Shown here: one piece after another, positions 15,905 to 52,855 of the stretch
How the letters are laid out: each line of letters begins with the position of its first letter
How positions within the stretch are numbered: position 1 is the stretch's first letter
Assembly (NCBI GenBank): GCA_043228905.1
Contig: JBHGNT010000018.1
Span: 2,480,001-2,544,000, forward strand
Length of the DNA stretch: 64,000 nt
Origin: Azolla caroliniana
Taxonomy: Eukaryota > Plantae > Polypodiophyta
Direction of reading: 5' to 3'
The notes under the pieces: generated by a model
The model's input: the letters and a program-made list of their open reading frames with translations, nothing else
What the model was told of the DNA's origin: nothing
Databases searched by the model: none
Program-made: the position numbers and the translations under genes

Positions 15905-15935
<31 letters not shown>

Positions 15936-16080
15936 GAAGAAGATGCTGCTGCTGCTGCTGCTGCTGCTGGTGAGAAGGAGGATGATGATTTTCTGTGGTT
16001 TTGTTTTCTTTGCTCTCGGGCCATGGTGAAGGCGATGGCGATGGCGATGGTGATGGCGATGGCGCCATGACACCTTTCAT
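7075..16080 (-). CDS. SPY: SPINDLY-type TPR O-fucosyltransferase (GT41), 17 coding exons, about 1036 aa
   Basis: GT-AG exons read on the minus strand: 15337-16080, 12888-13049, 12631-12806, 12456-12531, 10684-10812, 10474-10593, 9975-10043, 9801-9882, 9600-9694, 9452-9516, 8965-9163, 8687-8881, 8508-8602, 8270-8405, 7976-8193, 7607-7734, 7075-7496. They total 3111 nt, in frame. TPR repeats (PAYYNLGVVYSEM, AEACNNLGVIYKDRDN) are followed by SPY catalytic motifs (GYISPDYFTHSV, VDILVELTGHTANN, TFGSFNNLAK, LDTFPYAGTTTTCESLYMGVP). The start ATG is inferred (MKGVMAP). Confidence 0.95.
10070..10430. repeat. Diverged ~198-bp direct duplication in SPY intron 6
   Basis: The block tatgtttg.actcttcaaagt...tagtgctccaaca.tgatacagtt...gctga.atttcag occurs at about 10072 and about 10270. 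Confidence 0.85.
14160..14540. repeat. ~100-bp degenerate tandem repeat (3-4 copies) in SPY intron 1
   Basis: Recurrent gtggtactaa(g)aaa..gcaaggcttt / ttggattattca.cccattg / aatgctggttt blocks. Confidence 0.75.
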
Positions 16081-16167
16081 GTGTGTGTCTTCTTCTTCTT
16101 CTTCAGGAAGGAAGGAAGGAAGGAATGTATAGACAGACAAAAAACACAGACTACTGCGAAAAAAATC

Positions 16168-16201
<34 letters not shown>

Positions 16202-16253
16202 TAGTAGGGTGTGTGTGTGTGAGAGAGAGAGAGAGAGATAGAGAGAGAGTAGT

Positions 16254-16292
<39 letters not shown>

Positions 16293-16366
16293 TAGTAGGG
16301 TGTGTGTGTGAGAAAGAGAGAGAGAGAGAGAGTTGTGTGTGTGTGTGTGAGAGAGAGAGAGTAGTA

Positions 16367-16397
<31 letters not shown>

Positions 16398-16432
16398 AGA
16401 GAGAGAGAGAGTAGTAGTAGTAGTATGTAGTG
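16081..16432. repeat. Compound (GT)n(GA)n(GTA)n microsatellite directly upstream of the SPY start
   Basis: About five iterations of a GT-run / GA-run / GTA module; reads as CT/CA-rich on the SPY sense strand. Confidence 0.95.
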
Positions 16433-19399
16433 TGAACTTTTTGCATTCTCCCAAAGTCAACAATGCGTATGTCTCTCTTCTCTATCTTCTCTCCTTTTCT
16501 CTTGTTGCCGGCCTACCTACCTGCCCTGCCCTTGCCTGCCCTCCTGGGTGTCCCGAGAATCCACATGAATCGGGTGTGTGGAGGATGATGTGCATGTTGG
16601 CTAATGGTCAGCCGGACTTGATGAACCCCGAGAACCTCTTCAAGCCTCGGACGGTTCGGTTCGTACACTCGACCCGTGCTCTCGCCCCGACGCTCTTCCC
16701 TGCGTGACCATATAACATTTGCCTCGAGTGCTTTCCTTCAAAATTTGTGTATGTAGGAAAGATATGTGTGTGCCCCTCTACTTACGATGTGCGCATGTGT
16801 CGTACATGTGAGGTTGCAAGTGTATGTGTGTGTATGTGATTGCGCACGTGTGCCATGGGATGCATTTGCATGAGAGAGGATGTGTATGAACGTGTGAATC
16901 AATCAGAATTTATATGTCCACATATGTGTGTGTGAACATTTATGTTTGTGCGTTTAGCTAACTAAATGTGTGCGTACGTTCATGTGCACCCTTATGTATG
17001 TTTCCTTACATTCGACAAGTATGTGTGTCGAAATGTATAACTTTGTATGTGTAACTTGAGTGTGAATAGATGTTGAATGTGTGTTTGTTTGATATGTGTG
17101 TGTGAATGTGTATGTTGACTATGCGGATGTGTAAGTGTCAATGTAAATTTTATAAGCATGTATATGTGTGTGTTGTGTGTAAATATATGGTCATACTTTG
17201 TAGATGGGCGGCATAGACTTTTACAAATTAGTACATGTATGTATGTGTGTATATAATATATATATATATGCATGTAATTCAAGGGTATTTTGGGAACATA
17301 AAGCTCCCCCTTTTTTTCCATGTTGGTTGTGTCAAATGAATTAGGGAATGGGACGGAAGAGGTAAAGAATCCCTTTATAGTGCGAACACTAGACTCGTGC
17401 CCAAACCAATGGTCATGATGAGGTTTTCGTGACGAGGAGGTTTACATCAGCCTTCTCATTCGTTGTACATGATGGCTAATCATGGATCAAACACCGCTAC
17501 AACATTGTTTAGTTGTTTTCATGATCCTCCTTCCTTCCTAGTTTTCGTGTCAGTGCGCACAATAGAACTTTTGAGTTTTATTGTTATGAGTCCCTAAGAT
17601 AGGCTCCACATGAGAGAACCTTTCAAGTTGTTTAATTTTGAGCTCAACATTGGTGCTTGATGCAAATCTCAAGCATCACCCAATAGAAGGGCATTGGATC
17701 TACATGCTTCACAATTGTGGCTTTGAATACTTGTGTTTGCTAAATTTTTAGTGTAAAGCCCATTTTCTTATTTTGGTCAATGTGCAAACATTTTTGTTGC
17801 AATGTTGGCACAAAATATGGTAGCCTACAATTGTTGTTGTAGGTCATGAATGGCTCCATCTTTCTACCGCCATTTGTTGTAGTAGTTATTTGAATTTGTG
17901 AGTGTAGGTGTTGTCTTCCTCCTTGATATGCACAATCAACCAATTTGTCTCTCTTGGAGGTAGCATTGTATTTGCTTTAAGTGTTGGTGACTTTTTGTTT
18001 ATTTTGATTGCTTCTACATCGGTGATGGCGAGTAGGACTTCCATCTTGCAAAAGTGAGGCTCAACCATTAGTCACCAGTGGGCAAAAAGAGGTCGTAGAA
18101 GCTATCATGAATGGAGTAAAATTAGGGGTTCCTCTTGTAGAGAGGATGGGAGAGGTTGGTGAACGCGGAGAGGTAAGTGTATTCACGTGTTGATGTATGA
18201 CATGGTCTTTGCCATCGAGGAGTGACATCCCCCAACCCTTCAACTAGCCCATTGTGAGGAATACAACCCCTCATGACTCAATAGTGACCCTCAAAGTGCA
18301 TCACGCCAAGATATGAATCATGTTGGCCCCTTCAAAAAAACTTGATTTAATGCATATCTTATTCATGTCGACATTGTTGTTTGGGCAAATTTCCTACCAA
18401 GTTCTTTCTTGGGCCGCTCTTTAGTTTTCTTCCTCTTATGTTCTTTTGGATATCATAATTGTTTTTTCTAGAGATGGATTTTCGGTGTGGGTTCTTTCGG
18501 CGTGCTACAAAATGCCAGTGTGACTGCGACATACACACAAACTCAGCTAAGTCTCGCACCCATTTATTTTATTCTTATTGACACCACAATGACGTCTAAA
18601 CGAGCTAAGGAACATAAGGATATACAAGACGAGGCTATAAGTAAAGATGACTTTTTAGATATGTGTTATCGTTTAACAAAAATAGAGATGGATATGAAAA
18701 AATGGGCAAAAGACGCTCAAACCCACAAGAAAAAAGATAAACAGGAAAAAGACGCTCTCAAGACTGAAATAGAGAATATCAAGATTTATATCTTATAATT
18801 AGGGAAATCAAGGAGAGAAAGAGGTACGTTAGGTTTTAGCTTTAATTTTGGGACATATCTCAAACAAGGAAAAACCATAACAAAAGGTTTATCTCATTCA
18901 CATTCACAATTGGGAGGGTATGAAGGCTTGTAGACATTGCCTCCTCTCTCTCACTAAAGATGTGAAAACAAATATGGAGCAATTGAAGGATATTGTCATT
19001 CTCAAGGCAAGGTATCAATATTTTAGTGCACATGTATGTGGACATTGAATGCTTAGTTTCCCATGCAATGCATGGATTGAAGAAGAATGCCAGTCTTGTA
19101 TCAAAATGTTCAAGCTCACAAAAGGTAAAAATGAGAAACCCCAAGCATTGTATCAATATTGAAGAATGACAAGGAAGATGAGACAATACCATCAAATGTA
19201 ATAAAAAAGAGATGTTTAAACTCCAACCAAAGTTAGCATGGAGACAACTCAAGGGCGAAAAGGAAGATGAGATTAGTGATTTCACTGACAAAGAGATAGC
19301 ACATATATGTAGAAGCTTAATATGCATCATAGGATAATGCATGTGACATTTAATATTGAAACACAATATAAACCATGTGTGTCTATTGAAGATATTAAT

Positions 19400-26885: not shown

Positions 26886-28314
26886 TGTCAGGAACAGTAC
26901 TAAGACAGAGATGGAATTAGTACTAAAAGAAGTATTAGTACTAAGAGAGGTGAAGAACTCTCGAGAGAAGGAAATAGTGAGTGAGAGGGAGAGAGAGAGA
27001 TCGAGAGAGAGAGAGAGTGATGATAAGAAAAGATATATATTATGTGAAGAGAATGTACAATAGTACCTAGGAGGCTTAAGACTGGCGTTGAACCGATTTG
27101 GTTCGAAATAATGCCTTGTGCCTCCTTTTATAGTGTTCTGAGGAATACTCCTGAAGTTTCTAGAATGTTCCAGAGAGAGAGAGAGTGATGGTAAGAAAAG
27201 ATATATATTATGTGAAGAGAATGTACAATAGTACCTAGGAGGCTTAAGACTGGCGTTGAACCGATTTGGTTCGAAATAATGCCTTGTGCCTCCTTTTATA
27301 GTGTTCTGAGGAATACTCCTGAAGTTTCTAGAATGTTCCAGAGAGAGAGAGTGATGGTAAGAAAAGATATATATTATGTGAAGAGAATGTACAATAGTAC
27401 CTAGGAGGCTTAAGACTGGCGTTGAACCGATTTGGTTCGAAATAATGCCTTGTGCCTCCTTTTATAGTGTTCTGAGGAATACTCCTGAAGTTTCTAGAAT
27501 GTTCCAGAGAGAGAGAGTGATGGTAAGAAAAGATATATATTATGTGAAGAGAATGTACAATAGTACCTAGGAGGCTTAAGACTGGCGTTGAACCGATTTG
27601 GTTCGAAATAATGCCTTGTGCCTCCTTTTATAGTGTTCTGAGGAATACTCCTGAAGTTTCTAGAATGTTCCAGAGAGAGAGAGTGATGGTAAGAAAAGAT
27701 ATATATTATGTGAAGAGAATGTACAATAGTACCTAGGAGGCTTAAGACTGGCGTTGAACCGATTTGGTTCGAAATAATGCCTTGTGCCTCCTTTTATAGT
27801 GTTCTGAGGAATACTCCTGAAGTTTCTAGAATGTTCCAGAGAGAGAGAGTGATGGTAAGAAAAGATATATATTATGTGAAGAGAATGTACAATAGTACCT
27901 AGGAGGCTTAAGACTGGCGTTGAACCGATTTGGTTCGAAATAATGCCTTGTGCCTCCTTTTATAGTGTTCTGAGGAATACTCCTGAAGTTTCTAGAATGT
28001 TCCAGAGAGAGAGAGTGATGGTAAGAAAAGATATATATTATGTGAAGAGAATGTACAATAGTACCTAGGAGGCTTAAGACTGGCGTTGAACCGATTTGGT
28101 TCGAAATAATGCCTTGTGCCTCCTTTTATAGTGTTCTGAGGAATACTCCTGAAGTTTCTAGAATGTTCCAGAGAAATCTAGAATATACATCAATTTTCTA
28201 TAATAAAACATAAATGAAAATAATATTCTACGTATTACAATGTATGGTCTAATGGTCAAGAGCTCAACCCATGTAGCATAAGGTCATGGGTTTGAGTCTT
28301 GCCATATCATGACA
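26886..28314 (-). repeat. 3' LTR of the gypsy element, expanded to 1429 bp
   Basis: Same termini and sequence as 33099-33469, plus a tandem array and an extra ~50-bp segment near 28231-28282. Confidence 0.95.
27003..28174. repeat. Tandem array, 7 copies of a 166-bp LTR sub-unit
   Basis: Unit ends (gttcca) at 27172, 27340, 27506, 27672, 27838, 28004 and 28170. Copies 2-7 appear identical apart from GA-run length. Confidence 0.97.
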
Positions 28315-31300
28315 TTATCCCCCCTTTAAAACGACGAGTGTAATGAGTCGTTTTGGATTGAGGACCCGGTTTGTCTGGATATTGACAATGGAAGTCTTCA
28401 AGAAGAGCACGAGCATTGGTGACATTCTGTATCGGTTCCCAAGTACGCTCGCTGGGACTATATCCTAGCCAATCGACTAGATAGTAGAGCTTGTTGCGAA
28501 CAATCTTGGAATCAAGGATGGTGGCAACCTCGTACTCAGGTCCATCTTCAAGCTCGATCGGGGGTGGAGGCTGTGTAATACGTCCTGGGATGGTGCTCTC
28601 TTGATAGGGTTCGAGGAGAGAACTATGAAACACTGGATGTATCCGAAGTTGTGGAGGTAGATCGAGACGAAAAGCGACACCATTAATCTTTCCTATAATA
28701 CGGAAAGGACCTAATCGCCGATAATCCAACTTCTCGCATGGGCGAGTAGTCTTGATGTGTCGTCGTAGTAGCCATACCCAATCTCCAATGTTAAAACTGG
28801 ATGGGAGTCGATGACGATCCGCATAAACCTTGTTTGTTTGTTGAGCTTGTTGGAGATGAGTAGATAAATCTGCTTGTATCTTGCGTAACCGCTCCAAACA
28901 ATCCTCCGCGCAAGGATTTGTGGACACCTCTAGGGTTTCAAGTACACACCACCTGGGGTGACATCCCATATAAGCATAAAATGGCGTAACTTTAGTCGAT
29001 GTGTGGATAGAGTTATTATAAGCAAATTCGGCAAAGTGGAGAATATCTGCCCAGTCATCCTGATGATAGCTGAGAAAGCACCGCAAATACTTCTCCAGCG
29101 TTTGATTTGTTCGTTCAGCTTGGTCGTCGATTTGTGGGTGGTAGCTGGAGGAGAGGTTACAAGTGACCTTGATCATTTTAAAAAGGTGCTTCCAGAATTT
29201 TGACACGAACTGGGGTCCACGGTCGTTGATGATACTATCGGGAAGTCCATGATGCCGACATACTTCACGCATGACAATTTCGACACTGTCTTCACTGGAG
29301 ATTTCCTTAGTACAGGGCAAGAAATTAGCCATCTTCATATATCGATCTACCCCTGTTAGAATCGCATTGAACCCCTTAGAGACTGGAAGATCTGTGATGA
29401 AGTCTAGAGCAATGGATTGCCACGACTTGCTTGGAATTGGTAATGGTTCTAATAAACCATATGGATGATGCCTTGACATTTTCGCTCTACAACATGTATC
29501 ACAAGTCCGAACAAAATCTTCGACAAATTGTCGCATACGGGGCCACCAGAATGATCGTTGTACTAAATCTAATGTTTTAGTACTACCAAAATGCCCAGTA
29601 GTTTTGTACTACTCGAAGGCGGCAAGAACCATTAGGAACATACAAAAGTTCTTTAAAGAAGAGTAATCCATCATAGTATTTGAATTGCCGATAGTCCGTA
29701 TCTGGTGGTTGCGACTGTGAACACGACGCTCGAGAGGGATCAATTTGTGCTAGTATAGCTTGGGCGAAAGCATTTGTCTTCAGGTCTGCACGTATGATAT
29801 TGATAACGTGGGAATCCATGGGCATGCCAAAGACCTGTGTTGCTTGCAGTCGTGCCGGTCCCAAGATTACTTGCTTTTGGTTATCGAAAGCTAGCTCGCC
29901 GGGACGCGGTGCTAGGTACGAATGCCGTGATAATGCATCTGCTTTCCCTTGATGCTTCCCAGGTCGATATGTAATCTTGAAGTCGAAACACGTGAGAAAA
30001 TGGGCCCACCGAGCTTGACGTCGATTTAACACATGAGCGTCTTGAAAATAGGCGAGGTTTTTGTGGTCACTGAATATAGTGACTTGATGAGAAGATCCCT
30101 CTAGAAAATGCCTCCATTGCATAAAAGAGTCCACTATAGCCAATAACTCTTTATCATGAATTTCGTAGTTGATTTCGGTGGCGTCAAACTTGCGTGAGTG
30201 AAAAGCCACAGGATGTAGCTTTTCATCATTACCTCGTTGTGATAGAATGCTCCCCAATGCAAAATCTGATGCGTCTGCTTCGATGATGAATGGTTTTTCT
30301 GGATCAACGTGAGCTAGAATCAGAGCTGATGTAAATGCCTGTTTAAGATTCTCAAAAGCCATGTCCACTTCTTCAGACCAAACGAACGATTGTCCCTTCC
30401 TAGTAAGTTGTGTAAGAGGCAAAACGAGCTTTGAGTAATCCTTTATAAACTTCCGGTAAAAAATTGGCAAAGCCTAGAAAGCATTGCACATCCTGCACCG
30501 AACGTGGAGTCTGCCATTCTACCACCGTTTTGACCTTAGCTGGGTCAATGGAGATGCCTTCTGAGGAAATGACATAGCCGAGAAATTCCACATGGTTGCA
30601 CCCGAAACTAAAATTTTCCAGCTTTGCATAAAGACCATGTTCTCGAAGTCGTTTTAGTATTAACAGTACATGAGAATCATGCTCTTCTTGGGTCTTTGAG
30701 TAAACCAGTAGATCATCCAAATAGATGATTAGACACACATCCAAGAGATCTCGGAAAATATCATTTGCCATGTGCTGGAAGACTGCTGGTGCATTAGTGA
30801 GGCCGAATGGCATGACCGTATACTCGAAGTGCCCATATCTGGTGCGGAACGCGGTCTTCCATTCATCTCCTGGTCGGATCCGTACGAGGTTATAGGCTCC
30901 TCATAAGTCGATCTTCGTGAAGAACCTGGCACCATTGATCCGTTCTAAAAGACTTGAGATAAGGGGGAGTGCATACCTATTTCGGATTGTAACCTTGTTC
31001 AAGCCACGGTAATCTACAACGAGACGAAGTGAGCCATCCTTTTTCTTGACGAAGAAAATGGGTGCGCCGGTTGGAGATTTCGAATGTTGTATGAAACCAT
31101 TCTCCAAATTCTCCTCTATATAGGCTTGAAGGACTTCCAGTTCGGTTGGTGACAGATTGTAGGTCGGTCCCCATGGTGGCTCTTTACCCGGTTGTAAATC
31201 AATGGGGCAATCATATGGTCGATGGTGAGGAAGCGTATTGGCTTGTACTTTATCAAACACATCAACATAATGACGATACTTCTCTGGAAGTTGAACGGTG

Positions 31301-31887
31301 GATTCCTCTTTAGTGGTGCTGGAGGGTTTTACTGATATTGCGAAGAGGAACATTTCTTCCTTGCGTCCTTCCTCATGCAACTGATGTAGTGAAATCGTTG
31401 CAATCTCATGAGTAGACCCTCGGGCTTTTCGATGCCGTATTTCTCTTGTTCGCCAATCTATGTCTGGGTTATGTAATTCGAACCATGGTAATCCTAAGAG
31501 AATGGGGTGTTTTGGGATGCTAATTATATTAAATGATACGACACATGCCAGATTATCTAGGACAATATTAACGGGCTCTGACTCTTCTATGATATTTCCA
31601 GAAGCAATGGGACGACCATCAATGACTACTACAGAGGCAAGACACGGGAGTTTTCTGAGAGATATCTGATGATCTTGGGCAAATTTCCTATCCATGAAGC
31701 AAGAATTAGCTCCAGAATCTAGAAGTCCTAAGACATGTATTGGAGGAGTACTTTTAGTACTAAGTGTTACTTGGGCTACGAACACATTGCTAACTTGCTT
31801 AGAGGGAATGGAACCACTAATGGGCTGCACAGATCTAGGGCTGTCCAACCAAATGGCTCCTATTTTGGCTGGACTTAGTCGTTTAAC
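28307..31887 (-). pseudogene. Gypsy pol (PR-RT-RH-IN-chromodomain), disrupted
   Basis: ORF pieces 30901-31848, 30400-30813, 29583-30470 and 28307-29536, separated by a premature TGA and frameshifts. Confidence 0.93.
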
Positions 31888-32970
31888 TCTTCCTCTAACT
31901 GACTAAGGACATCAAATTTGTTTGCTAAATTTGGGCTATTAGTACTATTAGGACTATTAGATATCCCTACTCAAATAGACTCGGGTTTAGTACAATCAGA
32001 ACTAGCAACTATTTGGTTTCCCTGCCTTCTTGGCCTATGGGGACAGTTTACCGCGATATGCCCTGGTCCACCGCAATAAAGACATAGTCGGTTTGCTCGG
32101 CATCATTGCTTTTCTTCTTCCGATAGCGATCCACGACGACATGTGGTGTCAATTTCCATCGGAGTTGGAGTACTTACTGGAGGCGCATTATATGACTCCC
32201 TCGGAAAAGGTTTCGCTACCACTGAGGCGTAGGTAGGCTCTGATCTTGCCCTCAGAATCTGGAATTGTTGTTCCGAACGTTGTTCGAAGAGGCGGTTGTC
32301 GCATCTCACCGTGCGACTAATTGCTTATGTTAATGACTTTGGCTCTTCGGGGAAGGTCAAGAGTAAATCCTTGACATTGTTGCGTAAGCCATAACGGAAT
32401 TGTTCCATCAATGCGTGATCATCCCAAGGGATATCGGCAGCGAGTAGGCGGAAATCTGTAGTGTATGCGGAGGCTGGACGATCACCTTGGCGTAATCGCC
32501 AGATTTTGTTGATTGCAGTCCTTATGCTGTCAGTATCTCCAAAACATGCCTTAAACTCACTTATAAATTCTTCAAAACTGTTTAGTAATGGAGATTCCTT
32601 TTCCAACAATGGAGCAAACCATGCTAACGTTGAGCCACTAAGGAGAGTGCCTACTAGTCCCACTCGTGATGCATCAGTGGGATATTGAGAAGGATGCATT
32701 TGTATCACTAAACGTACCTGATTCAAAAACCCTTCTAAATTGTGATCGAGTCCCATCAAATTTTGCAGGAAGACCGATCTTGGGTTCTGTGTGAATCCCT
32801 TGAGTGCTTGATCCTTGTTGTTGTAATGATATGATAGTCGCTTCGAGTTGTTGTACACGTAACGTTAGCTCCCCATGTTGTTGTTGTTTTTCTAGCGCTA
32901 TTTGTTGAAGATCCCCCAACAAACAATGATTTTCTTGTTCTAGTGTTACAAATTTCTCTTTTAAGCACTA
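31875..32970 (-). pseudogene. Gypsy gag (retrotrans_gag domain plus CCHC knuckle), disrupted
   Basis: EPKIGLPAKFDG, LSGSTLAWFAPLLE, LRQGDRPASAY...FR and TPTPMEID motifs plus a CCHC knuckle. The gag frame ends ...[15 protein letters not shown]. Confidence 0.88.
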
Positions 32971-35719: not shown

Positions 35720-38004
35720 AAGTGGTATCAGAGCGAAATGACACAGAAAATGGATGATTCGTTGGGAGGCATGTTCAAGCTCACCGGCTCCAACTATTCG
35801 GTGTGGAAGTCGAAGATGAGGGACATGCTCGTGGTTAAAGATCTTTGGTTGTTGGTTCAGTTCAGGGACAAGAGACCGGACAAAATCGATGCCACGATAT
35901 GGGAGGTGATGCACATGAAGACAACGGCGTACATACGGTGTTTCATCGACATGAGTCTATACAACAACTTCAATGAAGAGAGCAAGGCTCATGAGCTCTG
36001 GGAGAAGATCGACATTATGTTTTAAAACAAAAATGTTGTTAATCAGGTTTTGGTATTCCGGAAGCTAGTAAGACTCTGGTACCAAGATGGCTCCAGCATG
36101 GCGGAGCACATGAATGCCTTCCAGGGGCTGATCCACCAGGCAACATCATTGGAAGTACCTCTTGCCAATGAGGTACTAGCACTACTCCTGCTCGGTTCCC
36201 TCCCAGATAGCTGGGAGACGTTGGTTGTCACCTTGGGCAACACCGGGCCGGAAGGGAAACGGTTATCCCTAGCAAGAGTGAAGTCGAGCTTGCTAGATGA
36301 GGAGGCACGTCGGAAAGATAAGGATACGAGCTCTAAGTCCAAAGCGTTCCTTACCGAATCGGAACGCGGAAGACAAAGGAACCGTAGTCCCCAGAACCGG
36401 GAAAAGTCGGGGATACGGTCAAAGTCAAGGCGGTTCGAGCAGATAACGGAGGTGAAATACCGGGGGCAGTTCGAGGAGTACTGTCGCTCGAAGGGAATCC
36501 GGCTCAAATTTACTGTGCCGAATACGCCGGAACTAAACGGGCTGGCCGAGAGGATGAACCAGACCATAATGGAGAGGGTTCAAAGTATGCTGGCGCATGC
36601 AAAACTACCCAAGAAGGTTTGGGCTGAGGCACTGTCAACGGCGACATATGTGATAAACAGATCACCCTCAGTACCCTTGGACGGAGACACGCCACAAAGA
36701 GTATGGACCGGTAAGGAAGTATCCTACCGGCATCTGAAGGTATTCGGGTGTCTTGCGTATGTGCATGTAGCTAAGGACCGGAGAGGAAAACTAGATCCGA
36801 AGACCCGGCCATGCATATTCCTCGGTTATGGCGACGATGAGTTCGGCTACCGAGTGTGGGACCTGGTCGACAAGAAGGTATTCCGGAGTCGAGATATTAT
36901 CTTCATGGAGGACAAGACACTCGCCAACTGGGAGTCGGAGAAGAAGATAATGAACTCCGAGTCGACCGGTAAGGATCGATTCTACGAGGAGCAGACCCAA
37001 CCGGCAAGAGACCGGTTAGCACTCGAGGAACCAACCGGTTACGGTGAGGATACCGAACCAGCAGAAGAAGAAGTAGAGGAAGTTGAAACCGGAACCGGCC
37101 AAGACCCCGAATCGGCTTCAGATGAAGAGCGAATGGAGGGCCCGGTTACCGAAGCCCAAAGACGGAGATATCCTCTCAGAGAGAGAAGGCCCCCCCGGAG
37201 ATTTCCAGATGCAGAGCATGTGCTGCTAACCGATGAGGGGGAGCCAGAAAGCTTCGTAGAGGCGAAGGATGACACCCACAACTGCAAATGGTTAAGTGCC
37301 ATGCAGGATGAGATGGATTCCCTGCATGAGAACCATACGTACGAATTGGTGGAGCTGCCGAAAGGAAAGCGGGCACTCCGAAACAAGTGGGTGTACAAGT
37401 TGAAACTGGGAGATGCCGGCAACCCCCCGAGATACAAAGATAGGATCGTGGTGAAGGGGTTCTAGCAGAAGAAGGGCGTGGACTTCGACGAGATATTTGC
37501 CCCGGTAGTAAAGATGACCTCCATCCGGATGGTGCCGAGTATAGCGGCAAGCATGGACCTCGAGGTAGAGCAGTTGGACGTGAAGACGACATTCCTTCAC
37601 GGTGACCTCGAAGAGGAGATCTACATGCAGCAACCAGAAGGATTCGTGGAGAAAGGGAAGGAGCGCTTGGTTTTTCGGTTGAAGAAGAGCCTGTACGAAC
37701 TGAAGCAGGCTCCCCGACAATGGTACCGGAAGTTCGACTCCTTATGACCGATCAAGAGTACCACAAGACACAGGCTGGTCACTTTGTGTTTGTGAACAAG
37801 TTCGAAGGAGGCGACTTCCTGATACTCCTTCTGTACATGGACAACATGTTGATTGTCGGACGGGACCAAGCCAAAATACGGATGCTGAAGAAGGTTCTCA
37901 ACTGAACCTTCGCGATGAAAGACTTGGGTCCGGCAAGACAGATGTTGGGGATGCATATCATCCGGAACCGGCCAACGAAGCAATTGTGGCTGTCACAGGA
38001 GAAA

Positions 38005-39812
38005 TACGTGACAAAGGTGCTTCAACGGTTCAACATGTCAGATGCGAAACCGGTCGGATCGACATTTCCGGCAAACTGGAGGTTATCCGGTAAGCAAAGC
38101 CCGAAGACAAAAGCAGAGAAGGTGGATATGATGAAGGTTCCATATGCCTCTGCCATCGGGAGTTTAATGTATGCAATGGTGTGTACCCGACCGGATATAG
38201 GATACGCAGTCAGAGTGGTGAGCCGGTTTATACGTGACAAAGGTGCTTCAGCGGTTCAACATGTCATATGCGAAACCGGTCGTATCGACATTTCCGGCAA
38301 ACCGGAGGTTATCTGGTAAGCAAAGCCCGAAGACGAAAGCAGAGAAGGTGGATATGATGAAGGTTCCATATGCCTCTGCCGTCGGGAGTTTAATGTATGC
38401 AATGGTGTGTACCCGACCAGATATAGGATACGCAGTCAGAGTGGTGAGCCGGTTTATACGTGACAAAGGTGCTTCAGCGGTTCAACATGTCAGATGCGAA
38501 ACCGGTCGTATCGACATTTCCGGCAAACTGGAGGTTATCCGGTAAGCAAAGCCCGAAGACGAAAGCAGAGAAGGTGGATATGATGAAGGTTCCATATGCC
38601 TCTGCCGTCGGGAGTTTAATGTATGTAATGGTGTGTACCCGACCGGATATAGGATACGCAGTCGGAGTGGTGAGCCGGTTTATACGTGACAAAGGTGCTT
38701 CAGCGGTTCAACATGTCAGATGCGAAACCGGTCGTATCGACATTTCCGGCAAACTGGAGGTTATCCGGTAAGCAAAGCCCGAAGACGAAAGCAGAGAAGG
38801 TGGATATGATGAAGGTTCCATATGCCTCTGCCGTCGGGAGTTTAATGTATGCAATGGTGTGTACCCGACCGGATATAGGATACGCAGTCAGAGTGGTGAG
38901 CCGGTTTATACGTGACAAAGGTGCTTCAGCGGTTCAACATGTCAGATGCGAAACCGGTCGTATCGACATTTCCGGCAAACTGGAGGTTATCCGGTAAGCA
39001 AAGCCCGAAGACGAAAGCAGAGAAGGTGGATATGATGAAGGTTCCATATGCCTCTGCCGTCGGGAGTTTAATGTATGCAATGGTGTGTACCCGACCGGAT
39101 ATAGGATACGCAGTCGGAGTGGTGAGCCGGTTTATACGTGACAAAGGTGCTTCAACGGTTCAACATGTCAGATGTGAAACCGGTCGTATCGACATTTCCG
39201 GCAAACTGGAGGTTATCTGGTAAGCAAAGCCCGAAGACAAAAGTAGAGAAGGTGGATATGATGAAGGTTCCATATGCCTCTACCGTCGGGAGTTTAATGT
39301 ATGCAATGGTGTGTACCCGACCGGATATAGGATACGCAGTTGGAGTGGTGAGCCGGTTTATACGTGACAAAGGTGCTTCAGCGGTTCAACATGACAGATG
39401 CGAAACCGGTCGTATCGACATTTCCGGCAAACTGGAGGTTATCCGGTAAGCAAAGCCCGAAGACGAAAGCAGAGAAGGTGGATATGATGAAGGTTCCATA
39501 TGCCTCTACCGTCGGGAGTTTAATGTATGCAATAGTGTGTACCCGACCGGATATAGGATACGCAGTCGGAGTGGTGAGCCGGTTTATACGTGACAAAGGT
39601 GCTTCAGCGGTTCAACATGTCAGATGCGAAACCGGTCGGATCGACATTTCCGGCAAACTGGAGGTTATCCGGTAAGCAAAGCCTAAAGACGAAAGCAAAG
39701 AAGGTGGATATGATGAAGGTTCCATATGCCTCTGCCGTCGGGAGTTTAATGTATGCAATGGTGTGTACCCGGCCGGATATAGGATACGCAGTCAGAGTGG
39801 TGAGCCGGTTTA
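38005..39812 (+). repeat. Tandem array, 8 copies of a 226-bp piece of copia RT
   Basis: Unit starts (tacgtgacaaagg) at 38005, 38231, 38457, 38683, 38909, 39135, 39361 and 39587. Copies differ by a few substitutions. Confidence 0.98.
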
Positions 39813-40403
39813 TGAGCAATCCCGGCAAGGAGCACTAGAACGCAGTCAAATGGATACTCCGGTACTTGAAAGGCACTTCAAATATGTGTCTTCGATTCGG
39901 CTCCGGAAAACCTCAACTTGACGGTTTTACCGATTCAGACATGTCGGTTGATGTGGATACTAGCCGGTCTACATCCGGGTATGTAATGACATATGCAGGG
40001 GGAGGTGTTTCGCGGCAGTCGAGGCTGCAGAAGACAGTTGCGCTGTCAACCACGAAGGCGGAGTACATGGCGGTTGTGGAAGCCGGCAAGGAAATATTAT
40101 GGATGAAGGACTTCATCGGAGAGCTCGGTATCCGGCAAGATGAATATCGGCTCTATTGTGACAGTCAAAGTGCCATCCACCTTGCTAATTATGTGGTCTA
40201 CCATTCCTGGACAAAGCATATCCAGCGAAGGTATCATTGGATCCGGGAAAGAGTAGATGACCAGAAGTTCGCGTTGACGAAGATCCACACGGCTGAGAAC
40301 GGGTCAGATATGCTGACCAAAGTACTGATACCCGACAAGCTGGATGCATGCCGGAAGCGGATCGGACTAGTAAGACATCCCATGCCGGAGTGAAGGGGGA
40401 GTT

Positions 40404-44560: not shown

Positions 44561-45190
44561 AGAGAGAGAGAGAGAGAGAGAGATCACCATATCCACTCCC
44601 GCACGCTGATTTTGCATATTTATTATCTACCCTTCTCTCTCTCTCTCTCTCTCTCTGCCAATGGCTTCGTAACCCTAACCCTAACCCTAACCCTAACCCT
44701 AACCCTATTCCTAAGCACTGGCATACCTGCAGTGTCCCAATCGCCTCATTGGATCGAAACACCCCTCACTCCTCACCCTTACTTACCAGATTGCCATAAC
44801 TCCTGTCTCTACCCACCCAATTGGCTCATCGTTGCAAAACCCTAAAGCCCATTTCTCTAATGCTAAACCGCACACAAATCCCATATCTCGATTTTTAGTC
44901 CGCCACCATCTCATCTTTCTAATTTAATCTGCTACCGCCACAATCCCCAAATCCTAACCATTTTGACTCTAGACATTACCATTCACTCTCTCGAATCGGC
45001 AGTTACAGGCGGAAATCCTAACCTAATTACCCTAAACCCTAGTAATCCTTAAATTTATTAACTCTAATTAAGCTAATTCCAATAACTCTAATTACCCTAA
45101 ATCAAATAGCCCCAAGCCTAATTACTCGTAACCCTAACTAACGAAGCTAGGCCCTGATATCTCTAAACCCTAATCTAACCTATCCTGGTT
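44561..45190 (+). promoter_or_regulatory. NAC upstream region with GA/CT repeats, (AACCCT)6 and scattered telo-box-like motifs
   Basis: (GA)n 44561-44583, (CT)n about 44634-44656, (AACCCT)6 44671-44706, and AAACCCTA-type motifs near 44837, 45034 and 45165. The function is inferred. Confidence 0.5.
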
Positions 45191-45192
45191 CA

Positions 45193-46410
45193 ATGGCAGG
45201 CAGGCACAACATAATGGATCTTCCGCCGGGCTTCCGCTTCCACCCAACGGACGAGGAGCTAGTAGCGTTCTATCTCCACAGGAAAGCCACAGGTCTGGAC
45301 ATCCCGGCCGACATAATTGCAGAAATCGATCTGTACAAGCACGATCCATGGGAGCTTCCGCGTTTCTCGTCTTGCATCAAGAACGCTTCTGTTGCTACAA
45401 ACCCTAACCCTAACCATAACCCTGACCATGACCATAACCATGACCATGACCATGACCATGACCATAACCCTAACCCTAACCATGACCATGACCCTAACCC
45501 TAACCATGACAATAACCATAACTCTGACCATGACCATAACCATAACCATAACCATAACCATAACCATGACCATGACCATGACCATGACCATGACCTTCAT
45601 CATCATCATAACAACAACAGCAGTAACAACAATGGGCAACAACAATGCTTCTTCTTCAATTTCTCAGACAAGAAGTATCCGAGAGGATCAAGGACGAACA
45701 GGGCCACAGTGTCAGGGTATTGGAAGGCGACAGGGAGGGACAGGAGGGTGTTGGCACGAGAGGACATGGTGGGGATGAAGAAGACATTGGTCTTTTACAA
45801 GGGCAGGGCCCCAAGTGGAGAAAGGACGGATTGGGTCATGCATGAATACCACCTCTTGGTACGAGACTCTCGCGGTTTTGCCCCTCCCGACCAATCGTCT
45901 CGCGACACGTCATCATCGTCGTGCCCCGCACCCCCTCTCGGAGTTGGCCTCGAGAACCCCGGACAACATTACCCTGGGTCCTCGACCACTGGACACCACC
46001 ACCCTGGGTCCCCTAGGAAGTGTCACGTGGACACCCGACACATGGAACAACATGTCAATAGTACCGAATTACATGTCAACTCTTGCTCCTACCCACACTC
46101 TGGTCAGGAACCCTCGTCCTCGCGCCCTGCCTCTCCTGCCAAGGTTGCAACCCCCCACTCAAATTCGTCCCCTAGGTCGTCCTTCTGCATCAGACACCCC
46201 ATGGTCATCTGCCGCATCATTCACAAGAAGAAGAAGAACAAGAGGAAGAATAATATAATATGTCCTCGAGCTAACAGTATCCCCCCCACCATTACGCGCG
46301 CGACCCTTCCTCAACTCGTCTCCCCTAGCTCCCCTGATCAACCTCACCTCTCCCCCCTTAGAGATGACAATGACAACAATGATGGAAGTGACATTGATCA
46401 TGATGAGTAA
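45193..46410 (+). CDS. NAC-domain transcription factor, single exon, 405 aa, with expanded linkers
   Basis: Subdomain A LPPGFRFHPTDEELV, B IAEIDLYKHDPWELP, C KKYPRGSRTNRATVSGYWKATG, D VGMKKTLVFYKGRAPSGERTDWVMHEY and E VICRI, all in one open frame. Confidence 0.88.
   Translation: MAGRHNIMDLPPGFRFHPTDEELVAFYLHRKATGLDIPADIIAEIDLYKHDPWELPRFSSCIKNASVATNPNPNHNPDHDHNHDHDHDHDHNPNPNHDHDPNPNHDNNHNSDHDHNHNHNHNHNHDHDHDHDHDLHHHHNNNSSNNNGQQQCFFFNFSDKKYPRGSRTNRATVSGYWKATGRDRRVLAREDMVGMKKTLVFYKGRAPSGERTDWVMHEYHLLVRDSRGFAPPDQSSRDTSSSSCPAPPLGVGLENPGQHYPGSSTTGHHHPGSPRKCHVDTRHMEQHVNSTELHVNSCSYPHSGQEPSSSRPASPAKVATPHSNSSPRSSFCIRHPMVICRIIHKKKKNKRKNNIICPRANSIPPTITRATLPQLVSPSSPDQPHLSPLRDDNDNNDGSDIDHDE
45400..45633 (+). 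repeat. Coding hexamer repeat (AACCCT/GACCAT/AACCAT) encoding NP/DH/NH dipeptides
   Basis: Directly visible; lies in frame between NAC subdomains B and C. Confidence 0.95.
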
Positions 46411-49023
46411 TAGATGGAGATGCTAACAATGGCAAAAGAAAAAAAACTTAGATGTAAATAATAAAGCTTAGTTACCTGGATATGGCGAGAATGATCCCGA
46501 TGACAAAGAAAGTGATATAAGTCTTGACAATGTGTTTGGCTTGAAAAATATACTTGGCAATCCTCTTTTTTGAGCTAATTTTCAACCTAGAAACTTACCC
46601 CTTGCATGCGCCCCTCCTCTCATCAACCTCCATCTCTCCTAGGATTCCCATCACTGTGACGATGAGACCAAGTTGCAGTGAGTAGTGTTACACACAATCT
46701 CCTATCATTTGTCATGCGTTCCACATATCCATCATTTAGTGTTTGATAAAGCATGTATGTTATTTCCTCCTCAAACTATATGTTGTTTTGATACTTGATT
46801 TCAAGTTCTTTTCTCTTATCATGGCAAAAACTCAATTTGGGGAGCTATGAGTTTCTTCAAACGTGAGCTATGTATGATCTACTATCATGTATGTCCAAAC
46901 ATTAGAAATTCGAAACCCACTCCTCATTTGAGGAAAATACATATATAAAAACAAACTTAAACAAAGTTCTCTTTCGAAACTCTGAAATTGGTTGTATTAT
47001 TGAGGTTTTCGTTTTGAAATTTAAAATTGTTTGTCTTATTTGGATTTTCCTCCTAAAATTTGAAATTGATTGTCTTTGATATCAAGATTCGTTAGGAAAC
47101 CCTACTAATTGGTAAGGGCGATGACATTGCAATAGCCAACGTAATCCCAAATCTATATGGTAGTTCAACTAGAATGGCCAAATCAAGGAAAAATAGGAAG
47201 TGTAAGTAATATGACCAATGGTTATATGGTATTTTCCCAAGTCGAGAGAGAAAAGTGATAATTTTAAACAATGACCAATAGTTATCTAGTATTTTTATGA
47301 AGACATGAGAGAATTGTGAAAATTCAAACAAAAGCAGGTATTATGTTTAAGTAACATGTACCTGTGAAAGAATTGCATTCGATTTGCATAGTACTTCAAC
47401 AAAATTCTACAATTCAAGAATAAGCAATGGTAAAAACATGATGTGGTGTTACATGTAGCTTCAAGTGTCAAGCTTCAATAGGTTTTGTATTATATTTTGA
47501 TTATAAAAATTCTTCAAGATTATAGCTCGAGAAATTATGCATGCTAAGATTTTGCTCCAACAAAAATGGCTTTACATCATTTTAAATGAAATGCTACACA
47601 CCAAAAAAAACCATATTTGGATTGTTTTTCAAGGATATCAATAATGTTGGTATACACATTCGTAAACCACCCATGGAAAAACATAGCATAACTTTTAGCA
47701 AGGGATGTATCTAACCACCAACATCCTTCCCAAGTGCATGTAATAGCTCACTAGTTTAGCTATCACATTAGACTGTTCCTTCACTTGCAAGGGTTGCACA
47801 AAAGTCATATTTTGCTCCAATTGAGCCAACCTCAAGTATAACTTTATTTTAAGCATATCAACACTGATTGACATTTCCACTATGTTTTGTACAAATGAAA
47901 TCAAGAATTTAGTTGAAAGGGTCTCTAGCTTCCAAGGATTGAAACCTATGGACCTTGAAAGTAATGTGTTTGATTATTAGCGTTCACTTGTCTTCACATA
48001 TTTACTATGACCATACTATAAAGGGCCTATATGATAAAACATCATTCAATCACATAAAAAAACAAAAACCTATACACATAACATACTTTAGAGCAAATAG
48101 GTGTTCATGCAAACCATCATATGTAAATCATTCATCATTAAACAAGAGAGACTAAGTTATCAATGAAGACTTAAGGAGCAAATCAATGCTCCTATAAAAA
48201 GGAGACAGATTGATCAGTATTATTATCATATTAAGACATGTTAACTATAACCTATGGGATCAAAAGTGAAACATTTTCATATAGCATGTGTCAAATGGAG
48301 TAGTAACTCTGAAAAAGAGAAAGAGACAGAGACCGAGAGAGATGGCAAGAGAGACAGAGAGATGTCCACAAAACAAAAGTATGAATTGTGCATGCAATGA
48401 AACATTTCCACAGTATTTGTGGAGTTGAGTAATGATTGTAGAGAAATGAAGATAATAGAGAGATGGTGAACCAGAGGCATATAAAGAAAGTTAATGGGAA
48501 GATTAATTATTACATGCACACAATCACATGCCATGCTAGAGGTATGATGAATCAATACGTGCAAGCAATGATACACCTTCATATAGCATGTGGTGTTGAG
48601 TAATGACTAGATTTTAGAGAGAAAAAGAGGAGATGCATACAAAAGCAGACCAGAGGTTTAATGAATTCATGTGGCATCAATGTAAAAAGTGTCATTGCCA
48701 AATAATCCACAAATTTTATGTCAGAGGCTTTCTTTTATTTTCTTTTGGAGGCGGAGCTTAACCACATAACTGGCATCAACTATGATTATTCGCCTTCCAT
48801 ACTCATCTCTTTAAAGGTTTCTCAATTCTCAAGTGAAGCAAAATAAATCTTTTCCATTGCTCCACTTCCTCAGTCTTTAACCCTACAGCCTGCATTCACT
48901 TTTGGCCTCAAGATCTCGAATTGGAGAACACAAAGAAAAAACAAAATCTGCCCCAATTTGCCCATCAAAATATGCAAAAACGAAAAGTTACTGCAGCGAT
49001 ATATAAATTTCTCACACGCTCTC

Positions 49024-52000
49024 TCATCTACGAGATTTCTTCTTTGTTTTGCTTGAAGATTTGCCACCGCCAGTGGTTGCTTTGATTGTTGGTTCCGCAC
49101 TTGAAGGTTGTCCAGATTTTCCAGCCAAAGGAGGAGCCTTCAAAGACGATGCCGGAGTGGCATTCACTGATGTCACTGGCGATGGGGCGTTTTTGGAGAC
49201 TGATACTGACCCTTGAGCACCGCGCAACTGTGCCCTCTTATCTTTTCTTTTTGGCCGAAAGCTCGATCTCTCCCTCAAAGGAAGCCATCTCTCAGGATCT
49301 GGAGGAGGGCCGGGATTGGCCGGGTCATATCCCTTGGGATATCTTGGCTTCCTCTTACGCCTCCTCTTGTTTTTCTTTGGTCGCCCTTCTTCTCCTCCAT
49401 CTTCGATTGCCCAATGGTGCCGTTTCACACCTAAACCACTACCACCACTACCAATTACCCCTTTCTCTTCCAAAGAAGAAACATCTATAGCCTCTACCCC
49501 GGCCAATGCTGGCAATTGCCGCTCATACTCCTCTGCTTTTACTATATCTGTATGCACCAGACTGCATATAAGCCCTGTTAAGGCCTCCCCTCGTACTCCC
49601 TTAGATGAGCTTTTTGCTAGCTTTTGAAATAGAAGAGACGCCCCTTCCATGTTCTTGTGCTTCAGTTTCAATGCCGCTGCTTCTTTAGCGAATAGCTCCA
49701 GTGTAGTTTCGGTTTTTTCACCCATGTGATTTTCCCACCATTGCACTGCAGCATCGAGTGAAGCTTCAGCTCCATTTAAATCCCCACCTCTTTCCTTTAG
49801 AGCTACCAAAGTTGCCACCATAGCAGGCTTATGTTGAAGATTTGATATTTTCTCCAATGACTGAGCTGCCACTATATGATGACCTGCTTGAGCTGCTATT
49901 TGAGCACGAGCAAGGAGCAACATTGTTTCATCATTAGGATGCTTTTCTAAGTATTGCCCAAGCATTTCTTCGGCTCGAGTTAGCTTTCCTTCTCTCACAA
50001 GTAAAGACGCGCTCAATATAGCTGGAATACAACTATCCGGAAACTTTGCAAAAAGGCTCGGAAGAAGTTCCCTGACCTGGAGAAAATAGAAACTTTAGAG
50101 GGAAGTTGCAGTGAAAGAAAAAAAAATTGTGTTGGAATGTTGTTTGGATTCCTTCTGTTTTTCATGCTTGTGACCCGCAATGCTGTTGTGATACATGCCC
50201 ATCTTTGTACTAATGAGGTTTTATCTTGAATTTATGTTACTATAATGCGGTTAGAATTCTAAAAAGAGCCATAACTCTCAAATTATATCTAAAAATCCAA
50301 CATACGATGTCTGAAATTCTATGCAAACACCTGGTCTAATTTGTTCCCAAGCAGCAGCAATAGGAACCGATTAAAAGCTATTGCTTCCTTTTGTCGGGTA
50401 GAAAGCCTATGTTCCAAACCCTCTGCAAACCGCAGCCCTTCCTCAGATGTCTTCTTGTCAAACAAGCTATCTAGTTTCCTTAAAGAATCCGAAAGCTCTT
50501 TATTCCGCTTCAGCACAACAAGGTTGTTGCAAGCAACAGCCATTGCAGGAGCATCTGCCAGTTTTTGTTTCAAAAGATGATTATAAGCATCAAGAGCCTC
50601 TGTTGTTTGATCTTGAGCCTGAACAAATTTTCATGTCCCTTTTAGGAAGTGTCCAGAAAATGCAAATCACTGGACAATAAAGTCAAAACTACATAAAACT
50701 TCACCTGCTGAACAAAAGCGAGTTGTACAGAAATTGGAGCCAATTCATTCTCCACCTCATCGTTTGTGAAATCTTCTTCAATGAGCATTTCCTGTCCAAT
50801 TCTGTGAAGTCACAAAAGCACTGACAAAACTGAGAAGTATAGTTAACATTCATTGATCATATATGAAGAATATATAGTGCACATCAATCCCACGGCAGGA
50901 CAGTCACAGTTTTGATCAGGGTCACTATATCTATAACTGACATGCACCCTTCTTCAATTCAAACAGTGTATTCCCCTTGAAATGATACATTCCACTGTCT
51001 AGATCATGTGCAAAAAAATGCTTATATATTCCAAAAAACTATAAAATATCCAAGTTTTAATCACTTCCCTGAATTCTTAGATATATAATAGCTCAAATAT
51101 CGCATGTAATTGCTCTTTAAGGAACTGACCAGGGGCATCTCAGAGTTTGTCCCCTATCTTTGTTTAACTAAAGAAATATCTGTAATACTGAAACACTCCT
51201 ACAAATACTCATAAACGACAGTAGGCTGTGCATTAAAAACTGTAAAGTCTACAGGTGCACACTTTACGGCTGATTAAATTCTGTGAAGTATCATAAAAAA
51301 CAGAAAATACCTTCGAGCAAGTAATAGAAGTTCTTCTGCCTTGGCATAGTTATTGCCTTCAATTGATGCACATGCAGCATTATAAGCCAACTCAAATCCG
51401 CTACGAGGAGTGACTTTCAATGTTTGCATGAGCGCCGGAACCTCATTTGACCTTCCCCCAGATATGTAGGAGGCGATCAGATTGGTCTTCAATTCGCTTG
51501 AATCAAGATTAGCTTTTTGAGACAACTTATTATAGCTGTCTATGCATGCATTAAAGTCACCTAATCTATAGAATATCTGAGCTTCAAGCTGAAGAATTTC
51601 ATCATTTCTTTCTAATCCTTCCAAAGCCAGAATAGCTTCTTGTAGAGCATTCTTTTTGTACAAGCAATACGACTGAAGCCATAAACAAAGTTGTTAGCTT
51701 CTGAATATAAACCCTTGTGCCTTAGTGACTGGTATCAAACCAAGCAAGGGCTCCAATCTGCATTTTCTGCATTATCTTAGGTCCGAAGTCCTACCCTATA
51801 TGACTAGTATTTAATATAGCATCAAGAAGCTTTCACAAAGAGTTTTCTATATTTAAATACCTAAACTCTAACCCTGATATATATATATATATATATAACA
51901 TGGCTATTAGTGTCTAATTAAGAAAGCTTCTAAACTGCATATTCTAGTTTTGGATATACCCCAAACACCTACGTCCCTGATTATTATTATTATCTAATAA

Positions 52001-52783
52001 ATCAGATATTCAGGCTCCATTTTCTAGAATTATTTTATTCCTAAACTGTAAATTACAACCTTTCAACCATGAATCTAATCCCAAAGCAATAGAAATTTTG
52101 ATCTCTCTTTCTTAACCTAATCCATATAACTTTTTAAACTTCAAGAACTAATTAATCAGAAATTAAGTCTAATTAAACTTGGGGCTGTTTTGCTACTGCT
52201 ACACAACGACAGGGTCGTGCGCTAATTTTTAAAACCCATCGCTCATCCTGGTTAATATGCAACAGGTTAATCGATGTACCTTTTGGAACCTCAAGGAGAA
52301 TGAATTTGATTCATGAGCCGAATTAATTGCCAAGATTGCATCATCAATTTTGTCATCTTGTATCAAAGATACAATCTTGCATTGTAAAGCATCGACATCA
52401 CCCGGTGAATCAGCAAGAACTTCAAAATACAAACCAAAGAAAATCTAAATTTAAATACAAAACGAAACAGAAAATGGGGGGGGGGGGGGGGGGGGGAAGA
52501 GGACGAAGGTGAAGAAGACACACGTAAGCAAGAATAAGGGCAACTGAAGGGCAAGAACAAATCGAAAAAAGAAAGAAAGGAGCACAGATAGCAAATGAAG
52601 GAGAGACAACAGAAAGGCATTAGAAAGCATACTCTGATCAGCAACTTTGACGATCTGTTTGTATTCACTGGCTTGAACGTGGCGATCTAGAGAGAGGAAG
52701 AGGTCTTCGAGGGAAGGTTTGGGGGGGGAATCGACGGCAGGGGAGGCATGAGATCTGTTACCTTTCTGCTTGTTGGGCGCCAT
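49024..52783 (-). CDS. SRP72: Signal recognition particle subunit SRP72, 6 exons, about 696 aa
   Basis: Exons 52633-52783, 52280-52419, 51311-51672, 50705-50801, 50331-50618 and 49024-50076 total 2091 nt, in frame and GT-AG. TPR-like N-terminus, FELAYNAAC, and the diagnostic RKRKPRYPKGYDP...PDPERWLP RNA-binding motif with a basic C-tail. Confidence 0.95.
52476..52496 (+). repeat. G21 homopolymer in SRP72 intron 1
   Basis: Directly visible. Confidence 0.9.
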
Positions 52784-52855
52784 AGCTACACAAAGTTCTC
52801 ATGAAAAAATAAAAATAAAACAAAAGCTCTGTCGCCTCTCTCTGTTTTTGCTTAT

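What the first reader, a model, noticed from the sequence alone, without database searches (positions are those of the whole stretch)
45193..46410. Intronless NAC factor with two very long in-frame linkers at the usual intron positions, one a His/Asp/Asn dipeptide repeat
Seen: about 95 aa between PWELP (B) and the C subdomain, mostly (NP)(DH)(NH) repeats with more than 25 His, and about 115 Pro/Ser/His-rich aa between HEY (D) and VICRI (E), with no stops. Known: typical plant NAC genes have introns just after PWELP and between D and E, and short linkers there. The candidate GT/AG pairs I found are out of phase and the first insert has no pyrimidine tract. Inference: exonised former introns or a retrocopy with microsatellite-driven loop expansion. 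The His-Asp tract within the DNA-binding domain could confer metal or pH sensitivity, or condensate behaviour.
Basis: partly seen in the sequence, partly recalled or inferred. Interest (0 to 1): 0.72.

Follow-up and report, generated by a model that had tools for sequence, protein, structure and literature searches.

The report
Fern NAC factor with repeat-swollen loops
This fern gene makes an unspliced message for a NAC transcription factor whose DNA-binding core is strongly conserved but carries two very long inserts, one a histidine-rich repeat that likely grew by DNA slippage in a predicted surface loop, so the inserts are not former introns and are probably tolerated padding rather than a metal or pH sensor.

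Summary
The 405-aa single frame is real: B-C linker 95 aa (27 His), D-E linker 118 aa. Contigs of three RNA runs that splice all five introns of the neighbouring SRP72 gene show no joint in it and read through the candidate splice sites. A relative's orthologue keeps one frame across a remodelled 142-aa repeat linker; core dN/dS is 0.012. The inserts are not exonised introns: two paralogues of the same old fern clade are also single-exon, with the normal 11-aa linker, and the repeat starts 13 codons past the intron site. All His codons are CAT, which points to slippage of an AACCCT/AACCAT hexamer. Loop swelling recurs in this genome (9 of 27 NAC loci; an EIN3 gene). Verdict: an ordinary expressed NAC factor with unusually long, probably tolerated loops. 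A metal or pH role is untested.

The parts
44671..45503 (+). Cluster of AACCCTAA motifs over promoter, 5' UTR and the start of the B-C insert; likely seed of the coding hexamer array
   Evidence: 13 of the window's 16 matches lie here; 2.4 expected in the whole window from shuffles
45012..45192 (+). 5' UTR (minimum extent)
   Evidence: RNA contig of run X2 starts at 45012; its seven listed indels here are +1 or +4, none a multiple of three
45193..46410 (+). Single-exon coding sequence, NAC transcription factor, 405 aa
   Evidence: no splice joint in RNA runs that splice the neighbour
45214..45360 (+). NAC subdomains A-B (dimerisation arm and helices)
   Evidence: Matches solved NAC domains at residues 8-57; 8 synonymous and 0 non-synonymous changes against orthologue L046
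45361..45645 (+). B-C linker, 95 aa; the first 6 residues or so are the ancestral linker
   Evidence: low model confidence, no secondary structure after residue 67
45400..45609 (+). Hexamer array (AACCCT, AACCAT, GACCAT units) coding 70 aa of NP/NH/DH dipeptides with 27 His
   Evidence: all 27 His codons are CAT
45646..45849 (+). NAC subdomains C-D (DNA-binding sheet); Cys replaces the nearly invariant Trp at its start
   Evidence: 11 synonymous and 1 non-synonymous change against L046; Trp in 272 of 273 homologues; pLDDT blocks 70-93
45850..46203 (+). D-E linker, 118 aa, Ser/Pro/His-rich, fast-evolving
   Evidence: Read through in RNA contigs, listed indels in frame; differs in repeat content in L046
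46201..46236 (+). NAC subdomain E strand followed by a basic run
   Evidence: Model strand at residues 337-344; the motif before it is shared with fern homologue P0124
46411..46979 (+). 3' UTR ending at a poly(A) site
   Evidence: Run X4 (related species) has a 20-A loose end behind 46979; the window has no A run there

Best explanation
This is an expressed, unspliced NAC transcription-factor gene with a core under strong purifying selection, belonging to a fern clade that likely lost both canonical introns long ago, and its two long linkers are coding loop expansions that likely grew later by repeat slippage and are predicted to loop out as disordered segments while the NAC domain folds normally. 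Steps: (1) shown: one frame, retained in mRNA, conserved core. (2) Inferred by parsimony: one early loss of both introns (probably through a cDNA), then duplication into three paralogues. (3) Inferred from codon uniformity: an AACCCT/AACCAT hexamer inside the B-C loop expanded in steps of six bases, which cannot break the frame; single-base changes gave NH, DH and GH units. (4) Inferred: the loops are mostly tolerated; any effect on charge, DNA binding or metal binding is a side effect rather than a selected sensor.
For: RNA: runs X1, X2 and X4 join out all five SRP72 introns and leave 47012-48075 uncovered, but show no splice joint in this frame. X1 (near-identical to the window) reads across 45362/45369 and 46107/46143; X2 across 45667 and 45859. 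Listed X2 indels: 5 of 5 in the frame are multiples of three, 0 of 8 in the flanks (Fisher p 7.8e-4). Orthologue L046 holds one frame across a 142-aa linker; 19 synonymous and 1 non-synonymous change in 120 core codons. Clade: 3 of 24 parsed own-genome NAC loci are single-exon and group together with fern homologues; the other 21 have G|GT right after PWxLP. Single-exon paralogues L071 and L072 keep an 11-aa B-C linker and carry inserts in other loops. All His codons are CAT in both species. Model: NAC core confident, inserts low-confidence coil; best PDB matches are NAC domains. Loop swelling recurs: C-D loop over 20 aa in 9 of 27 own-genome NAC loci; an (NH)n array splits the DNA-binding domain match of an EIN3 gene.
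Against: No RNA contig spans the repeat core 45394-45634, which the tool skips. X1 depth at the gene is only about 3 and X1 does not cover 45635-46067. Contigs drop rare variants, so a minor spliced isoform is not excluded. The indel table was cut by 8 rows. Support for the clade of three paralogues is moderate (90/75, 97 columns), and gene structures of the Adiantum and Ceratopteris homologues were not seen. His content is kept in both species (27, 30), which neutrality allows but does not require. The Trp-to-Cys change beside the insert may mean the domain is altered.
Confidence: 0.78

Rival explanations
1. The His-rich loop began as slippage but is now a selected module that tunes the factor by binding Zn/Ni/Cu or by protonation, or drives condensates.
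For: His count is kept (27 versus 30) while length, Asp and Asn change. Net charge of the loop would swing from -14 to +13 if all His were protonated, next to a +8 DNA-binding region. pH control of NAC DNA binding through His135 and a charged disordered region is described for ANAC019 (PMC7767404, passages). Repeat length changes activity of Arabidopsis TCP14 (PMC10032594, abstract and section titles).
Against: His is built into the shared repeat unit, so retention is expected without selection. No synonymous CAC codon in 57 His codons. Other fern orthologues have 9-13-aa linkers without His. The same unit occurs at 11 other genome sites, in coding and non-coding DNA.
Confidence: 0.12
2. The inserts are former introns that were exonised, or introns that are retained in most and spliced in some transcripts.
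For: Both lie near the canonical intron sites; a GT follows PWELP in phase 1; in-frame GT/AG pairs exist for both.
Against: That GT is the Arg codon also found in single-exon paralogue L071 and is GC in orthologue L046. GTs at 45369 and 45391 are absent in run X4's species. Inserts have GC 0.44 and 0.60, T 0.20; true neighbouring introns GC 0.33-0.42, T 0.33-0.49. RNA reads through. Sister paralogues show intron loss to the spliced linker length.
Confidence: 0.06
3. A recent processed copy or a decaying gene whose frame is open by chance.
For: No introns; a nearly invariant Trp is Cys; low depth in X1.
Against: Core dN/dS 0.012 at dS 0.30; polyadenylated transcript at depth 79-144 in X4, like SRP72 at 76-99 (contig depth is a poor measure of level); no near-identical intron-bearing parent among the ten matches of the genome search (best other match 73-83% over short pieces).
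Confidence: 0.04

Closest known systems
Plant NAC transcription factors (Pfam NAM PF02365; solved ANAC019, ORE1/ANAC092, rice SNAC1)
   Same: Subdomains A-E all present; sequence and predicted fold match the solved domains.
   Different: B-C linker 95 aa against a median of 11; D-E linker 118 aa against 17; Cys for the Trp at the start of subdomain C; short C-terminal region of about 60 aa.
Fern NAC group of Adiantum P0011/P0017/P0030 and relatives P0009, P0124, P0125
   Same: Same subclade (99/88); shared linker start and subdomain C and E motifs.
   Different: Their B-C linkers are 9-13 aa and D-E linkers 13-34 aa. The sister group reaches 86 aa in D-E (P0012) but keeps 11 aa in B-C.
Intronless NAC subfamilies (Populus subfamily IX; PMC3017804, passages read)
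   Same: A whole NAC subfamily without introns beside the usual two- to three-intron genes.
   Different: A different clade as far as tested here; loop inserts did not appear in the passages read.
Coding short-tandem-repeat expansion in plant transcription factors (PMC10032594, abstract and outline)
   Same: Length-variable repeat tracts in disordered protein segments.
   Different: Those are homopolymer tracts; here a 70-aa dipeptide array sits inside the DNA-binding domain.
ANAC019 histidine switch (Kang et al. 2018, seen only through the review PMC7767404)
   Same: Histidine protonation and a charged disordered region can tune NAC DNA binding.
   Different: The switch is one conserved His in the folded domain, not a repeat loop; no such function was tested here.

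Membership tests
NAC transcription factor | NAM domain profile match above the curated cut-off | tested here: met
   146.5 bits against cut-off 27
NAC transcription factor | Subdomains A-E in order | tested here: met
   one conserved Trp is Cys
NAC transcription factor | NAC fold (twisted sheet with helices) | tested here: met
   Predicted model only: core pLDDT 70-93, overall 57; Foldseek E 3.4e-10 to ANAC019
NAC transcription factor | Dimerises and binds DNA | not testable with these tools
   Needs an assay; core residues conserved
Exonised or retained intron | Insert boundaries coincide with the ancestral intron site | tested here: not met
   Array starts 13 codons downstream; ancestral linker residues flank it
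Exonised or retained intron | Intron-like composition and conserved splice signals | tested here: not met
Exonised or retained intron | A spliced isoform exists | tested here: inconclusive
   None in four runs per call, but contigs drop rare variants
Retrogene | Precise loss of ancestral introns | tested here: met
   Single-exon paralogues have the spliced 11-aa linker; 21 other loci keep intron 1
Retrogene | Close intron-bearing parent, genomic poly(A) tail, target-site duplication | tested here: inconclusive
   No close parent; no A run at the 3' end; target-site duplication not searched; such marks would be lost in an old event
His-rich metal-binding or pH-sensing loop | Measured metal binding or pH-dependent effect on function | not testable with these tools
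   Composition only

The most novel reading that the evidence does not exclude
A microsatellite born from a telomere-like hexamer has grafted a poly-histidine loop into the DNA-binding domain of a fern NAC factor, and the lineage now keeps it as a metal- or pH-tuned switch on DNA binding; the same repeat family is swelling loops in other transcription-factor DNA-binding domains of this genome (further NACs, EIN3), making it a natural series for how new regulatory modules enter folded domains.
Probability: 0.12. Interest if true: 0.65.

Novelty: new variant of a known kind. Interest (0 to 1): 0.3.

Why it matters
It shows that the NAC DNA-binding domain can carry a 95- to 142-residue repeat loop between subdomains B and C under strong purifying selection of the core, which marks that loop as a permissive insertion site. 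It also warns annotators: such inserts look like introns and could be cut out wrongly by gene models. If the His loop tuned DNA binding by metal or pH it would be a young sensor built from a microsatellite, but nothing here shows that.

Tried and rejected
Splicing of either insert: no joint in runs X1, X2, X3, X9 or X1, X2, X4, X9; the only joint in the frame is a replacement at 46108-46162 with AA..CA ends and 92 letters between, not an intron. Run X9 has a 572-nt contig across the whole D-E insert but no cover of SRP72, so its RNA status is not shown and it was not counted. Absence of cover over the repeat core is a tool skip, not evidence. Database protein searches returned no orthologue with the long B-C insert; only the DNA pattern scan found one (1 of 12 loci). 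The ESM Atlas gave no usable hit for the insert, which shows nothing. The second structural comparison was not run because the machine was busy. Four divergent own-genome NAC loci (L053, L054, L056, L057) did not parse and were left out of counts and tree; three more (L062, L069, L070) lacked a parsed exon 1; P0020 and P0146 were dropped from the tree. Literature: eight searches listed no paper on an intronless fern NAC clade or on repeat inserts in NAC loops; most results were seen as listings only, subscription papers are not covered, and no supplements were opened, so fern gene-family tables there may already list this gene. A search of earlier scan notes found none on this gene or on NAC in this genome.

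Full report
Observation. The window holds one stop-free frame at 45193-46410 coding 405 aa with a NAM domain in two stretches (E 6.7e-43). The B-C linker is 95 aa with 27 His, 25 Asn and 16 Asp; the D-E linker is 118 aa. A period-6 array of 32.7 copies lies at 45400-45595. Among 273 of 326 stored homologues that parsed, the B-C linker has median 11 and maximum 40, and the D-E linker median 17 and maximum 86. That sample is made of best-scoring hits and leans to short loops.

Organism. The window is G000:C18:2480001-2544000 in a 523-Mb assembly. The closest single-domain homologues with a name are from Adiantum and Ceratopteris, so it is a fern.

RNA. Runs X1 (near-identical to the window), X2 and X4 (a related species, about 92% alike) join out all five introns of the neighbouring SRP72 gene with CT..AC ends on the plus strand and leave 47012-48075 uncovered, so they are spliced RNA. 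In the NAC frame they show no splice joint. X1 contigs cross 45362/45369 (45201-45393 plus 62 further letters) and 46107/46143 (46068-46216); an X2 contig crosses 45667 and 45859 (45635-46033). X4 continues past 45367 into an in-frame homologous linker that lacks the GTs at 45369 and 45391, and ends in a poly(A) loose end at 46979 where the window has no A run. Of the X2 indels listed, 5 of 5 inside the frame are multiples of three and 0 of 8 in the flanks (p 7.8e-4; 8 rows were cut from the table). Limits: no contig spans the repeat core, which the tool skips; X1 depth is about 3; contigs drop rare isoforms. X9 was not counted because it does not cover SRP72.

Orthologue. A pattern scan of metagenome contigs gave 12 loci; L046 is the orthologue from a relative. 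It holds one frame across the whole B-C linker, here 142 aa with 30 His, 53 Asn and 7 Asp and an internal duplication, and across at least 114 aa of a D-E linker with a different Gly/Gln repeat. Over 120 core codons there are 19 synonymous changes and 1 non-synonymous change (dS 0.30, dN/dS 0.012). It has GC, not GT, at the canonical donor position.

Origin of the single exon. The genome search gave 63 NAM matches. Of 31 loci examined, 24 parsed for both halves: 21 have G|GT directly after PWxLP and 3 are single-exon (this gene, L071, L072). The three fall in one clade of 22 rows (support 90/75), each beside homologues from other ferns; the window gene's subclade has 99/88. L071 and L072 keep the 11-aa B-C linker of spliced genes and carry their inserts elsewhere: 81 aa in the C-D loop and 53 aa in the A-B loop. 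L049, the relative's copy of L072, is also single-exon. The simplest history is one old loss of both introns, then duplication, then separate loop growth. This is inference: gene structures of the other ferns were not seen. Intronless NAC subfamilies are known in poplar (PMC3017804, passages).

Origin of the inserts. The first residues after PWELP align with the short linker of orthologues; the array starts 13 codons past the intron site. The inserts have GC 0.44 and 0.60 and T 0.20, unlike the five true introns next door (GC 0.33-0.42, T 0.33-0.49). All 27 His codons here and all 30 in L046 are CAT, and the units differ by single bases, as expected of slippage. The motif AACCCTAA has 13 of its 16 window matches in 44671-45503, over promoter, 5' UTR and the array start. 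Five tandem RACCAT units occur at 12 places in the genome, 10 of the 30 matches being in this gene. Of the 11 other places, two lie in long frames read as NH repeats, one inside the DNA-binding domain match of an EIN3 gene. C-D loops over 20 aa occur in 9 of 27 own-genome NAC loci against 2 of 273 homologues; these paralogue inserts are open genomic frames and were not checked in RNA.

Structure. The model has confident blocks over subdomains A-B and C-D (pLDDT 70-93) and a strand at 337-344 for subdomain E; both inserts are low-confidence coil; mean pLDDT is 57. The best matches are ANAC019, ORE1 and rice NAC1. In ORE1 the DNA contacts come from loops 85-93 and 125-137 (PMC10203392, passages and section 6); by sequence order the B-C insert lies before the strand that leads into the first of these, and I could not measure its distance to DNA. 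The nearly invariant Trp at the start of subdomain C (272 of 273) is Cys here and in L046.

How it likely works. A normal dimeric NAC DNA-binding core with two disordered loops hanging from it. Expression, frame and core constraint are shown; intron-loss history, slippage origin and disorder are inferred or predicted; tolerance rather than function is my best reading (0.78 overall). A selected metal or pH role is possible (0.12): His count is kept and the loop's charge would swing from -14 to +13 on full protonation, and pH control is described for ANAC019 (PMC7767404, passages). Against it, His is part of the repeat unit, Asp is not kept, and other fern orthologues lack the loop.

Novelty. 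A new variant of a known kind: a NAC factor with the longest B-C loop in the sample examined. Eight literature searches listed nothing on this clade or such inserts; supplements and subscription papers were not seen. Repeat expansion in plant transcription factors is known (PMC10032594, abstract and outline). Interest 0.3.

Noticed in passing
L077:1-2148 minus (G000:C6, about 14.78 Mb): EIN3/EIL gene whose DNA-binding domain match is split by an insert holding an (NH)n array of the same AACCAT unit.
   Followed up: partly
L004, L007, L055, L059, L065, L071 (own-genome NAC loci): Long Asn/His/Ser-rich inserts of 33-141 aa in the C-D loop, which is not an intron site; not checked in RNA.
   Followed up: partly
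window 45646-45648: Cys in place of the Trp found in 272 of 273 homologues at the start of subdomain C; shared with orthologue L046.
   Followed up: partly
window 48605-52799, minus strand: SRP72 gene with five introns spliced in three RNA runs; the related species has a 41-base duplication near the stop codon.
   Followed up: partly
window 14971-16512, minus strand: TPR protein exon (SPINDLY-like by my recall) with an N-terminal run of SP, poly-Gln, poly-His and poly-Ser repeats.
   Followed up: no
window 38004-39813: Eight tandem copies (97% alike) of a 226-base unit inside a copia-like reverse transcriptase region.
   Followed up: no
window 27006-28174: Seven near-perfect copies of a 166-base unit beside a gypsy-like element at about 28300-32900.
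   Followed up: no
L008/L030 (G000:C1124) and L006/L028 (G000:C6): Nearly identical NAC locus on a chromosome and on a small contig, possibly an uncollapsed haplotype.
   Followed up: no
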